Positions 12,001 to 15,000 of a stretch of DNA of 64,000 nt are shown in pieces. The stretch's first letter is position 1. Each line of letters starts with the position of its first letter. A program made the position numbers. Source of the DNA: Escherichia coli (GTDB lineage Bacteria > Pseudomonadota > Gammaproteobacteria > Enterobacterales > Enterobacteriaceae); the NCBI RefSeq assembly GCF_050920415.1, contig NZ_CP169309.1. One strand, written 5' to 3'.

Positions 12001-15000
12001 TTGGCTATTGTTGAAAATCACTGGCAGGACGCGCATTTCGACGCCTTTCAGGAAGGGTTGCTTTCTTTTACTGCGGCATTAACCGATTACAAAATTTATT
12101 TGCTGACGATCCGTAGCAATATGGATGTTTTGACGGGATTGCCGGGTCGTCGGGTTCTTGATGAATCCTTCGATCATCAGTTACGCAATGCTGAACCTCT
12201 GAATCTTTATTTAATGTTGTTGGATATTGACCGATTTAAATTGGTTAATGATACCTACGGGCATTTAATCGGCGATGTAGTATTACGCACCCTGGCAACT
12301 TACTTAGCCAGTTGGACGCGCGATTACGAAACGGTTTATCGCTACGGGGGCGAAGAATTTATCATTATTGTCAAAGCGGCTAATGATGAAGAAGCATGTC
12401 GTGCAGGTATCAGAATTTGCCAGTTAGTCGATAACCATGCCATCACACATTCTGAAGGGCATATCAACATTACCGTTACAGCAGGTGTGAGTCGCGCATT
12501 TCCTGAAGAGCCTCTGGATGTGGTCATTGGAAGAGCGGACCGGGCAATGTATGAGGGTAAGCAAACCGGAAGAAATCGCTGCATGTTTATTGACGAACAA
12601 AATGTGATTAACCGAGTTTAAGCTCCGTTTAACATTCATTGAGAAAACTGATGCTACTGTGTCAACGATCCGTTATCAGTGCAGGAAAATGCCTGTTAGC
12701 GTAAAAGCAAAACACAAATCTATCCATGCAAGCATTCACCGCCGGTTTACTGGCGGTTTTTTTTCGCCGTCATAAAAATCAGGCCCCTTGTACACAGTTG
12801 TAACAAGGGGCCGGTTAGGTGAGGGGTTATCTCCGTTCATTAGTCATCCCATTTGTGGCTGAAATACGCGGCCAGAAAACCAGAAAATAAAATTATTCCC
12901 AGTACGGCCATAAAAACATTCATATTACCCAGCATTATTTGCCTCCGTTTATGGTGTGGTGTGTTTCCTCGCTTACCTTAATTTTCATCTCAATGAGAAA
13001 GATATTAGCAGAGGTAACCTAAACGAAGGCTGAATTAAATTTTTATTGTGTTCGACTTAAATCAACAAAGCGCGGGCTGCCCCCACGGTCTTGCACGAAT
13101 CCCTTTTAACATCAGCACCCACGCAGCAATGATCACCAACGCTAAGATGATAAACAGCGAGGAAGGCGGCAGGCTGGTTAGCACTACGCCACTCACTAAT
13201 GGATTAATCGCAGCACCAAGCCAGCCTAAAGACTGGGCGGAAAAATAGCTGGCTTTCATTCCTGGCGGCGCAATATGGTCAATCAACATATACTCGCCCG
13301 GCGCATAAATGATTTCACCGACAGTAAATACCGCAGCTGACATACCCCACATTAGCAGGCTGTTGCCGGAAAAAATAAAACCGACCAGCCCGATGACGAA
13401 ACAGAGGGTGCCTGCTGTCATCAGCGCGCGGATGTTAGCCGGATTAAGGCGGCGGCCCACGGAATACTGCAACGTAACCACCATCGCAGCATTAACCGGA
13501 AGAACAACCGCGACCACCTTTTCGGCAAAATCACCATCAGCAATTACCATCACATATTGTGAAATGCATGAAGCAAATGCTCCGCTAACAAAAGAAGCCA
13601 GAAAGCCAGAGCAGGTAAACCACAACAGTGCTTTATCTTGTAATAAAACTTTCGGCGACCAGACACTGCCTGTTTCCGTGGCGATGATTTTCTCGCTGCG
13701 CTTTACCCAAATTTGAATGAAAAGCATGGGAAACGCGGAACAGATAGCTGCCAGCCAAAAGGGCAGATTGATGCTCTGCATCACCAACAGCGTGCCGAGC
13801 GGCGGACCGATGGTCCAGCCAATGTTGAGCATGGTGTAGTTGATTGAGAAGATTTTCGTTTTGCTGGTGGACGAAAGATTGTCGGCAAACCAGGCTTTCA
13901 ACACGGTAGCAAAAACGGAATAGGCGCAGTTAATAAGGGCAAAAAAGAGCACCACCAGCGTCACGTTATTCACTAAAGGAATGGCAATAAAACCGCTGGC
14001 GAAGGCGGTAATTGACAGTAACATATAGCGTTTCTTGTCGAACTTATCCGCCAGGATACCAAAACCGAGGCTAAAAACGACGCCAATAGTGAGCGCAATT
14101 GTCATCGCATAACCGATTAGATCGACACTCAGGCTGTACTGGCGACTCAAGTAAATGGTCATAAATGGCAGCGTAGCGCCGCGTCCGATGGTTAATAACA
14201 ACGACGAGGCAAGAAGGGCGCTGGTAGAGCGTCGTAGGGATAAGTTCATTTGTCTGTCCGGCAGTGCGTTTCGTTATGCTTTGTTTTAGAGATGTAAAGA
14301 AATAGCATGGCAAAAATCCGAAGTATAGCGACTTATTTGCGCATTAATGCCGTCGTAACCGGCGACTAACGAATCAACTGTTAAAGAAAAGTAAATTCAG
14401 CTAAGTTGATTGCTTACAAAAGATGAAATTCAGAGGCGGTAGAATGTCGCGAAAAGATGGGGTGTTGGCGCTACTGGTAGTGGTCGTATGGGGGCTAAAT
14501 TTTGTGGTCATCAAAGTGGGGCTTCATAACATGCCACCGCTGATGCTGGCCGGTTTGCGCTTTATGCTGGTCGCTTTTCCGGCCATCTTTTTTGTCGCAC
14601 GACCGAAAGTACCACTGAATTTGCTGCTGGGGTATGGATTAACCATCAGTTTTGCGCAGTTTGCCTTTCTGTTTTGCGCCATTAACTTTGGTATGCCTGC
14701 TGGACTGGCCTCGCTGGTGTTACAGGCACAGGCGTTTTTTACTATTGTGCTCGGTGCGTTTACTTTTGGCGAACGGCTGCACGGTAAGCAACTGGCGGGG
14801 ATCGCGTTAGCGATTTTTGGCGTACTGGTGTTAATCGAAGATAGTTTTAACGGTCAGCATGTGGCGATGCTCGGCTTTATGTTGACCCTGGCGGCAGCAT
14901 TTAGTTGGGCGTGCGGCAATATCTTCAATAAAAAAATAATGTCACACTCAACGCGTCCGGCAGTGATGTCGCTGGTCATCTGGAGCGCATTAATCCCGAT

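What the first reader, a model, noticed from the sequence alone, without database searches (positions are those of the whole stretch)
12615..12935. PhoP-regulated small-RNA / small-protein pair between dgcZ and ydeE
A PhoP-box-like direct repeat overlaps the dgcZ stop, followed ~130 nt later by a strong terminator, which fits the sRNA MgrR. On the other strand lies the 31-aa MgtS ORF with its own hairpin terminator; it is missed by the ORF track.
Basis: partly seen in the sequence, partly recalled or inferred. Interest (0 to 1): 0.3.

Follow-up and report, generated by a model that had tools for sequence, protein, structure and literature searches.

The report
Known E. coli mgrR–mgtS magnesium-stress locus
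This stretch is the well-studied E. coli locus where the low-magnesium regulator PhoP switches on a small regulatory RNA (MgrR) and, facing it on the other strand, a 31-residue membrane protein (MgtS); it is real and correctly recognised, but already known.

Summary
Observation confirmed, interpretation supported, nothing new in kind.

- **MgrR:** Rfam gives one hit in the whole window, RF01407 STnc560 (277 bits, threshold 55), on the plus strand. The window aligns to K-12 without indels, which places the annotated 98-nt MgrR at 12667-12764 (97/98 identical).
- **MgtS:** The minus-strand ORF 12840-12935 is MgtS (NCBIfam 80.6 bits, Pfam 88.2 bits; same RefSeq protein accession as other E. coli strains).

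Three refinements:
1. **PhoP box.** The box conserved in 39 species sequences is CGTTTA-acatt-CATTGA (12626-12642), 12 bp before an extended -10. The repeat copy on the dgcZ stop codon is not conserved as GTTTA outside Escherichia.
2. **Hairpin.** The hairpin after mgtS (12782-12812) is a conserved terminator with compensatory stem changes. In E. coli it lies inside a third published small gene, mgtT (12736-12840), which runs antisense into the MgrR terminator.
3. **Leader ORF.** A published 17-codon ORF (CDS58, 12935-12988) sits in the mgtS leader.

The mgrR-mgtS pair stays together in 49 of 54 species even where the flanking genes differ.

Unexplained: the mgtS stop/ATG overlap and the next ~17 nt are conserved in 47/47 loci outside the Kluyvera-type group, although the rest of mgtT is not.

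The parts
11731..12621 (+). dgcZ (diguanylate cyclase) CDS. Its TAA stop (12619-12621) overlaps the upstream GTTTA copy. Context gene, not part of the module.
   Evidence: ORF list; RefSeq annotation of the identical strain and of K-12.
12615..12620 (+). It is in phase (11 bp) with the PhoP box but is not conserved as GTTTA outside Escherichia.
   Evidence: pattern match. G12616 in only 9/39 and A12620 in only 6/39 species sequences.
12626..12642 (+). Conserved mgrR PhoP box, CGTTTA-acatt-CATTGA. It lies at -41 to -25 relative to the start site and 12 bp upstream of the -10.
   Evidence: T12628, T12629, T12630 and A12631 are 39/39 and G12627 is 38/39. In the proximal half-site T12639 and T12640 are 38/39 and G12641 is 35/39.
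12652..12660 (+). Extended -10 of mgrR, TGcTACTGT.
   Evidence: G12653, T12655, A12656 and T12660 are invariant (39/39) and T12652 is 34/39. It ends 7 nt before the annotated 5' end.
12667..12764 (+). MgrR small RNA, 98 nt. It has a 5' hairpin (12671-12701), an A-rich single-stranded stretch, an invariant pairing core ATCTATCCATGCAAGCATT (12718-12736), and a terminator stem (12738-12757) followed by a U-run.
   Evidence: Rfam RF01407, 277 bits. K-12 ncRNA mgrR b4698 transferred through an indel-free alignment, 97/98 identical. Fold -25.9 kcal/mol, z = -2.9. Covariation in both helices. Published pairing region U55-A68 (PMC6239178).
12772..12812 (-). mgtS intrinsic terminator: hairpin 12782-12812 followed on the minus strand by UGAUUUUUAU (12781-12772). 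It lies inside the mgtT reading frame.
   Evidence: -21.9 kcal/mol, z = -4.1; a hairpin plus U-run in 48 of 54 species loci, with compensatory stem changes between genera.
12736..12840 (-). mgtT, a 34-codon ORF. Its ATG overlaps the mgtS stop (TAATG). It runs through the mgtS terminator, and its last 29 nt are antisense to the MgrR terminator.
   Evidence: RefSeq annotation. 33/34 identical to K-12 MgtT. Published as translated (CDS59) and PhoQP-dependent with no phenotype.
12840..12935 (-). mgtS, encoding the 31-aa protein MLGNMNVFMAVLGIILFSGFLAAYFSHKWDD. Its GGAGG ribosome-binding site is at 12942-12946.
   Evidence: NCBIfam NF033842, 80.6 bits (cutoff 35); Pfam PF22865, 88.2 bits (cutoff 27). 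RefSeq WP_000901367.1.
12935..12988 (-). CDS58, a 17-codon leader ORF (MKIKVSEETHHTINGGK). It ends in a second TAATG overlap, on the mgtS start codon.
   Evidence: Translation. Identical to CDS58 in the PIRT-Seq supplement. Weak western signal reported.
13002..13036 (-). mgtS promoter: PhoP box AATTCA-gcctt-CGTTTA (13036-13020), a 12-bp gap, then the -10 TAATAT (13007-13002).
   Evidence: Read. Cross-species alignment shows rrTTcA-N5-TGTTTA-12 bp-TAnnAT conserved in most genera.

Best explanation
This is the E. coli mgrR / mgtS-mgtT locus, two convergent transcription units that are both activated by phosphorylated PhoP when magnesium is low. On the plus strand, PhoP binds the box at 12626-12642, which takes the place of a -35 element. 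RNA polymerase starts at 12667 and stops at the terminator ending at 12764, giving the 98-nt Hfq-dependent small RNA MgrR. Its invariant single-stranded core (12718-12736) pairs with target mRNAs (eptB, ygdQ, pitA) and represses them. On the minus strand, a second PhoP box (13036-13020) drives an mRNA that encodes the 31-aa membrane protein MgtS. MgtS raises intracellular magnesium by stabilising the MgtA importer and acting on PitA. That mRNA ends mostly at the hairpin 12782-12812. Transcripts that read through also allow translation of the overlapping ORF mgtT. Shown here: identity of the parts, their coordinates, their conservation, and the promoter and terminator anatomy. Taken from the literature: PhoP dependence, Hfq binding, the targets, and MgtS function. 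Inferred: which half-sites PhoP occupies, and the mgtS start site.
For: - Rfam RF01407 at 277 bits is the only hit in the window.
- The indel-free alignment to K-12 has 5 substitutions, so the annotated mgrR, mgtS and mgtT coordinates transfer directly.
- MgtS HMM scores are far above the cutoffs.
- The locus is present in 5416 of 5426 complete E. coli genomes.
- MgrR lies convergent to mgtS and immediately downstream of it in 49 of 54 species loci. 34 of those 54 loci share neither DgcZ nor YdeE flanks.
- Both promoters show the same conserved layout: half-site, N5, half-site, 12 bp, -10.
- Both MgrR helices covary: 85.5% of cells paired against 27-49% when the partner is slid, and 0 of 500 shuffles reach the observed covariation score.
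- The mgtS terminator stem changes in a compensatory way between genera.
- Literature: PMC6239178, bioRxiv 10.1101/2021.06.30.450655, PMC11429745, PMC12721325.
Against: Nothing contradicts the identification. Limits: PhoP binding, the start sites and Hfq dependence were not and cannot be tested here. The primary MgrR paper (Moon and Gottesman 2009) and the MgtS papers (Wang 2017, Yin 2019) are not in the held library. I therefore could not compare my PhoP-box assignment with theirs. RefSeq does not annotate mgrR in most E. coli records; only K-12 carries the ncRNA feature.
Confidence: 0.96

Rival explanations
1. In E. coli itself, PhoP uses the perfect direct repeat the first reader chose (AGTTTA-agctc-CGTTTA, 12615-12631, at -52 to -36). 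That sits one helical turn upstream of the canonical position. It would be used instead of, or together with, the conserved CGTTTA-acatt-CATTGA pair.
For: The upstream pair is the better match to the (T/G)GTTTA-N5-(T/G)GTTTA consensus, and the pattern is rarer than chance. The three half-sites are exactly in phase at 11-bp spacing. A TAGTT-like element at that position recurs in several Citrobacter, Salmonella and Phytobacter sequences. [quoted passage not shown]
Against: The upstream copy is not conserved: G12616 in 9/39 and A12620 in 6/39. The central and proximal half-sites and their 12-bp distance to the -10 are nearly invariant. The mgtS promoter uses the same 12-bp layout.
Confidence: 0.25
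2. mgtT encodes a functional protein in its own right, making a third effector of the low-magnesium response.
For: It is annotated in RefSeq and K-12. It was detected by Ribo-RET with a chromosomal tag and by PIRT-Seq. It is PhoQP-induced. The ORF is intact in E. coli, a divergent E. coli lineage and E. albertii.
Against: Deletion and overexpression give no phenotype, and the protein is not membrane-associated. Within Escherichia pN/pS is about 0.6-2.2, against about 0.25 for mgtS, on small counts. E. whittamii has lost the reading frame. Outside Escherichia the ORF ends anywhere from codon 7 to 83. The residues that stay constant (RPL, KGP, KKPPVNRR) are those encoded by the two terminator stems. 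No family model exists for it.
Confidence: 0.2
3. The RNA made here is the 214-nt species implied by the Rfam STnc560 model (12633-12846), not the 98-nt MgrR.
For: The Rfam model matches end to end over 214 nt.
Against: The first 34 nt of the model cover the -10 element and the spacer upstream of the annotated start. A strong terminator with U8 ends at 12764. The second hairpin has no U-run on the plus strand but has one on the minus strand. It behaves as the mgtS terminator across genera. K-12 annotation and PMC6239178 both give 98 nt.
Confidence: 0.03

Closest known systems
MgrR small RNA of E. coli K-12 (b4698); Rfam RF01407 STnc560
   Same: Same position between dgcZ and mgtS. 97 of 98 nt identical. 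Same terminator, A-rich stretch and pairing core. Same promoter sequence.
   Different: One substitution at nt 4 (C here, T in K-12). C is the common state in other species. The Rfam model boundaries are much wider than the RNA.
MgtS (formerly YneM), NCBIfam NF033842 / Pfam PF22865
   Same: Carries the same RefSeq protein accession (WP_000901367.1) as other E. coli strains, and its DNA is identical to K-12 mgtS. Same leader and PhoP-box promoter.
   Different: Nothing in the protein. One substitution upstream of the promoter (13041).
MgtT (b4775) and CDS58, published small ORFs of the mgtS transcription unit
   Same: Same coordinates and the same TAATG overlaps. CDS58 is identical.
   Different: MgtT has Thr15 here and Val15 in K-12, from a 2-nt change in the terminator loop. 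RefSeq therefore labels this allele 'hypothetical protein'.
Canonical PhoP-activated promoters (mgtA, phoP, mgrB type; own knowledge)
   Same: A direct repeat of two hexamers 5 bp apart replaces the -35, with a 12-bp gap to the -10, in both promoters.
   Different: Each box has one good and one degenerate half-site: CGTTTA/CATTGA for mgrR and AATTCA/CGTTTA for mgtS. mgrR in Escherichia carries a third in-phase half-site upstream.

Membership tests
MgrR / Rfam RF01407 (STnc560) | Covariance-model score at or above the gathering threshold (55 bits) | tested here: met
   277.4 bits, E = 2.3e-64, full model 1-214, plus strand. It is the only Rfam hit in the window.
MgrR / Rfam RF01407 (STnc560) | Orthologous position and sequence relative to the annotated K-12 mgrR | tested here: met
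   Indel-free alignment. 12667-12764 corresponds to NC_000913.3 1622914-1622817, 97/98 identical, between dgcZ and mgtS.
MgrR / Rfam RF01407 (STnc560) | Rho-independent terminator with a long U-tail, and an invariant single-stranded pairing region | tested here: met
   Stem 12738-12757 plus a U-run. The core ATCTATCCATGCAAGCATT is the most conserved block of the species alignment, invariant apart from a few single-base differences. It covers the published pairing region U55-A68.
MgrR / Rfam RF01407 (STnc560) | PhoP-dependent transcription and Hfq dependence | not testable with these tools
   Only the sequence-level PhoP box could be checked. The dependence itself is taken from the literature.
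MgtS (NF033842 / PF22865) | Full-length match to the equivalog HMM above the curated cutoff | tested here: met
   80.6 bits against 35 (NCBIfam) and 88.2 against 27 (Pfam), residues 1-31 of 31.
MgtS (NF033842 / PF22865) | PhoP-box promoter and a convergent mgrR neighbour | tested here: met
   Box 13036-13020 with a 12-bp gap to TAATAT, conserved across genera. MgrR lies downstream in 49/54 species loci.
MgtS (NF033842 / PF22865) | Membrane protein that stabilises MgtA | not testable with these tools
   Taken from the literature. The hydrophobic core of the sequence is consistent with it.
MgtT (b4775) | 34-codon ORF starting at the mgtS stop (TAATG), near-identical to K-12 MgtT | tested here: met
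   33/34 identical, same overlap.
MgtT (b4775) | Conserved as a protein (purifying selection, intact ORF in relatives) | tested here: not met
   pN/pS is about 1 within Escherichia. The reading frame is lost in E. whittamii. ORF length is 7-83 codons elsewhere. This does not bear on whether it is the K-12 mgtT orthologue, which it is.
PhoP box | (T/G)GTTTA-N5-(T/G)GTTTA direct repeat about 12 bp upstream of the -10 | tested here: met
   mgrR: CGTTTA-N5-CATTGA, 12 bp, TACTGT. mgtS: AATTCA-N5-CGTTTA, 12 bp, TAATAT. Each has one degenerate half-site, and both are conserved. PhoP binding itself was not tested.

The most novel reading that the evidence does not exclude
What matters about mgtT may be the act of translating its conserved start, not the peptide. 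A ribosome finishing mgtS would re-initiate at the invariant TrATG and move onto the conserved proline codons (MNGDxPxP, PPP in several genera). These lie just upstream of the terminator, so the ribosome would cover the 5' arm of the hairpin and let transcription read through into the antisense of mgrR. This would couple translation speed, which is sensitive to magnesium and proline as in the mgtL and mgtP leader ORFs of mgtA and mgtCBR (own knowledge), to the balance between MgtS mRNA and MgrR.
Probability: 0.08. Interest if true: 0.5.

Novelty: already known. Interest (0 to 1): 0.12.

Why it matters
It matters little as a discovery. MgrR, MgtS, MgtT and CDS58 are all published, and all but CDS58 are annotated in K-12. 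Three things are useful for annotation. First, RefSeq omits mgrR from most E. coli genomes. Second, the Rfam STnc560 model covers promoter DNA and the neighbouring gene's terminator on the wrong strand. Third, the conserved PhoP box is not the most obvious GTTTA repeat. The cross-species comparison also gives a concrete, testable reason why mgtT has no phenotype: only its start and first few codons are conserved.

Tried and rejected
- **Protein search:** The search for homologous proteins refuses queries under 40 aa. I used the search of protein representatives instead. Most of its 22 hits were truncated or frameshifted calls, so only 6 full-length sequences went into the profile.
- **Papers not held:** Moon and Gottesman 2009, Wang 2017 and Yin 2019 could not be read. 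No held paper links the names MgrR and STnc560 or states the position of the mgrR PhoP box.
- **RNAalifold:** on 39 species it recovered only the terminator. The 5' hairpin had to be tested with an explicit structure, and it is poorly aligned in distant genera (73.8% of cells paired).
- **MgtT family:** no NCBIfam model exists.
- **Long-range pairing:** the 266-nt mgtS mRNA fold suggested pairing between the conserved leader motif GGUAAGCGAGG and the C-rich stretch after the mgtS stop. The fold is not better than shuffles (z = -1.7), and Citrobacter sequences show no obvious compensating changes, so I did not pursue it.
- **Codon periodicity:** in the conserved stretch after the mgtS stop it is weak (mean top-base frequency 0.83, 0.81 and 0.75 for positions 1, 2 and 3, worked out). 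It does not decide between a coding constraint and an RNA constraint.
- **Simple scans:** the promoter scan found neither promoter, as expected for PhoP-dependent promoters that lack a -35, and it missed the bulged mgtS terminator.

Full report
**What is in the sequence.**
The interval lies between dgcZ (plus strand, stop TAA at 12619-12621) and ydeE (minus strand, 13062-14249).
- **Repeat.** It occurs 3 times in the window against 0.15 expected by chance.
- **Plus-strand terminator.** The stem is 12738-12757, followed by a T-run to 12764.
- **Small ORF.** A 31-codon ORF lies on the minus strand at 12840-12935.
- **Hairpin.** A hairpin follows that ORF at 12782-12812. It folds at -21.9 kcal/mol (z = -4.1) and has UGAUUUUUAU on the minus strand.

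**Identity.**
- **Source.** The window is E. coli. An 801-bp stretch around the locus and a second 2.3-kb stretch are each 100% identical to strain MFDS1022581 (NZ_CP169399.1). 5416 of 5426 complete E. coli genomes hold the locus.
- **MgrR.** Rfam gives a single hit in the whole window, RF01407 STnc560, at 12633-12846 on the plus strand (277.4 bits against a threshold of 55). K-12 annotates mgrR as a 98-nt ncRNA, mgtS, and a third small gene, mgtT. The window aligns to K-12 without indels and with 5 substitutions, so the coordinates transfer exactly. MgrR is 12667-12764 (plus), with one substitution at nt 4.
- **MgtS and MgtT.** mgtS is 12840-12935 (minus) and mgtT is 12736-12840 (minus). The 31-aa protein matches the MgtS equivalog (80.6 bits, cutoff 35) and the Pfam MgtS-like model (88.2 bits, cutoff 27) over its full length.
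- **Literature.** The two genes are convergent and PhoPQ-dependent. MgrR is a 98-nt Hfq-dependent RNA whose U55-A68 region pairs with eptB and ygdQ. pitA is a further target.

**Related loci.**
A profile of six full-length MgtS sequences retrieved 54 loci from a collection holding one genome per species. They come from Escherichia, Citrobacter, Salmonella, Atlantibacter, Phytobacter, Kosakonia, Yokenella, Cedecea, Kluyvera and others.
- **Linkage.** A search with the 98-nt MgrR found it convergent to mgtS and directly downstream in 49 of 54 loci.
- **Flanks.** 34 of the 54 loci lack clear homologues (at least half-length tblastn matches) of all four E. coli flanking proteins tested (YdeI, DgcZ, YdeE, EamA). 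The pair therefore travels as a unit.

**The mgrR promoter.**
I aligned 39 sequences.
- **Central half-site.** TTTA at 12628-12631 is invariant (39/39) and G12627 is 38/39.
- **Proximal half-site.** yrTTGA at 12637-12642 is nearly invariant (T12639 and T12640 in 38/39).
- **-10 element.** The extended -10, TGnTAnnnT (12652-12660), is invariant at G12653, T12655, A12656 and T12660.
- **Spacing.** The gap between box and -10 is 12 bp, and the -10 ends 7 nt before the annotated 5' end.
- **Upstream copy.** The copy on the dgcZ stop is not conserved (G12616 in 9/39, A12620 in 6/39).

The conserved PhoP box is therefore CGTTTA-acatt-CATTGA (12626-12642). In Escherichia the three half-sites are in phase, so use of the upstream pair cannot be excluded. 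I give that rival 0.25.

**The mgtS promoter.**
It has the same layout on the minus strand: AATTCA-gcctt-CGTTTA (13036-13020), 12 bp, then TAATAT (13007-13002). This is conserved in most genera.

**RNA structure.**
- **MgrR fold.** MgrR folds into a 5' hairpin, a long open middle and the terminator (-25.9 kcal/mol, z = -2.9).
- **Covariation.** On the 39-species alignment, 85.5% of cells pair, against 27-49% when the 3' partner is slid. 11 of 19 pairs change on both sides, and no shuffle out of 500 reaches the observed covariation score. The terminator alone pairs in 98.4% of cells.
- **mgtS terminator.** The hairpin after mgtS, with a U-run on the mgtS strand, is present in 48 of 54 loci. Its stem sequence differs between genera in a compensatory way: GGCCCCUUG/CAAGGGGCC, GGCCCCUCG/CGAGGGGCC, GCCUCUCG/CGGGAGGC, GGCUUCUUAC/GUAAGAAGCC and GCCCGCGG/CCGCGGGC.
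- **Kluyvera-type group.** The six loci of this group (five Kluyvera plus one unnamed Enterobacteriaceae isolate with the same MgtS) lack the hairpin. In five of them the mgtS stop is 4-6 nt from the MgrR terminator, which must then serve both strands. In K. georgiana the spacer is 34 nt.

- **mgtT.** In E. coli the terminator lies inside mgtT, a 34-codon ORF. Its ATG overlaps the mgtS stop (TAATG), and its last 29 nt are antisense to the MgrR terminator. MgtT was found by ribosome profiling and confirmed with a chromosomal tag, at lower levels than MgtS. It was detected again by PIRT-Seq. It is PhoQP-induced but has no deletion or overexpression phenotype and is not membrane-associated.
- **CDS58.** PIRT-Seq also reported CDS58, a 17-aa leader ORF. 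It is present here unchanged at 12935-12988 (minus) and ends in a second TAATG, on the mgtS start.

**Is MgtT a conserved protein?**
- **Within Escherichia.** Substitutions in mgtT are about as often amino-acid-changing as silent (pN/pS about 0.6-2.2, on small counts). mgtS is almost invariant. E. whittamii has lost the reading frame.
- **Outside Escherichia.** The ORF ends anywhere between codon 7 and codon 83. The residues that persist are those encoded by the two terminator stems.
- **The conserved start.** In 47 of 47 loci outside the Kluyvera-type group the mgtS stop overlaps an ATG. The next ~17 nt (ATGAACGGnGAyArTCCCC) are more conserved than the third codon positions of mgtS: top-base frequency is mostly 0.8-1.0 against 0.72. 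In that frame the sequence reads MNGDxPxP, just upstream of the terminator.

I have no tested explanation for this. The most novel reading not excluded is that translation of these codons, not the peptide, modulates termination and hence read-through into the antisense of mgrR, by analogy with the proline-codon leader ORFs mgtL and mgtP (own knowledge). I give it a probability of about 0.08. The Kluyvera-type group lost the ATG, the hairpin and (except K. georgiana, 34 nt) the spacer together. That is most simply a single event, so it is not independent evidence.

**Verdict.**
This is a correctly recognised, already known locus. The corrections concern the exact PhoP box, the RNA boundaries, and two further published small ORFs. 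Interest is low. The one open point is the conserved stop/start overlap and the proline-rich start of mgtT.

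Noticed in passing
window 51500-53800: Rare accessory DNA carrying fimA-like fimbrial genes, an alpha/beta hydrolase and an IS481-family transposase. 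Only 18 of 5426 complete E. coli genomes carry at least 80% of it. The other two GTTTA-N6-GTTTA matches of the window (52159 plus strand, 53166 minus strand) lie here.
   Followed up: partly
L030:3189-3274 and L030:4783-4869 (Enterobacteriaceae bacterium RIT691): Two MgrR copies on the same strand. The distal copy keeps TGTTTA-gcctt-CATTGA, 12 bp, TAGCTT. The copy next to mgtS has lost the PhoP box and has unrelated upstream sequence.
   Followed up: partly
L026, L036, L037, L038, L040 (Cedecea clade): mgtS and its terminator are present, but no MgrR core lies beside them. C. davisae keeps a terminator-like hairpin without the invariant pairing core. Whether MgrR is elsewhere in these genomes was not checked.
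   Followed up: no
L051, L053-L057 (Kluyvera-type group: five Kluyvera and one unnamed Enterobacteriaceae isolate): In five of these six loci the mgtS stop codon lies 4-6 nt from the MgrR terminator hairpin (34 nt in K. georgiana, L054). There is no separate mgtS terminator and no ATG overlapping the stop, so one hairpin apparently terminates both convergent genes.
   Followed up: partly
L007 (SMXE01000224.1, labelled 'MAG: Caldithrix sp.'): The contig is E. coli sequence: YdeE 98.7% and EamA 99% identical to the window, with mgtS and MgrR matching E. coli. This is probably contamination of the metagenome-assembled genome.
   Followed up: no
window 12633-12846: The 214-nt Rfam RF01407 model covers 34 nt of promoter, the 98-nt MgrR, the mgtS terminator (modelled as a plus-strand helix) and reaches the mgtS stop codon. 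Its boundaries overstate the RNA. RefSeq does not annotate mgrR in the identical strain.
   Followed up: yes
window 12966-12983 (minus strand, mgtS 5' UTR): The motif AAGGTAAGnGAGG, about 25 nt upstream of the real ribosome-binding site, is conserved across most genera. The CDS58 ORF that contains it in E. coli is not: E. albertii lacks its ATG, and Citrobacter NCU1 has a 2-codon ORF there. Its function is unknown.
   Followed up: no
L058:931-1628 (E. coli 29A20CPO013) and L002:1-522 (E. coli E2865): IS1 insertions flank the module in some strains. One lies between the mgtS promoter region and ydeE. Another truncates dgcZ, leaving only its 3' end next to mgrR. The module itself is intact in both.
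   Followed up: no
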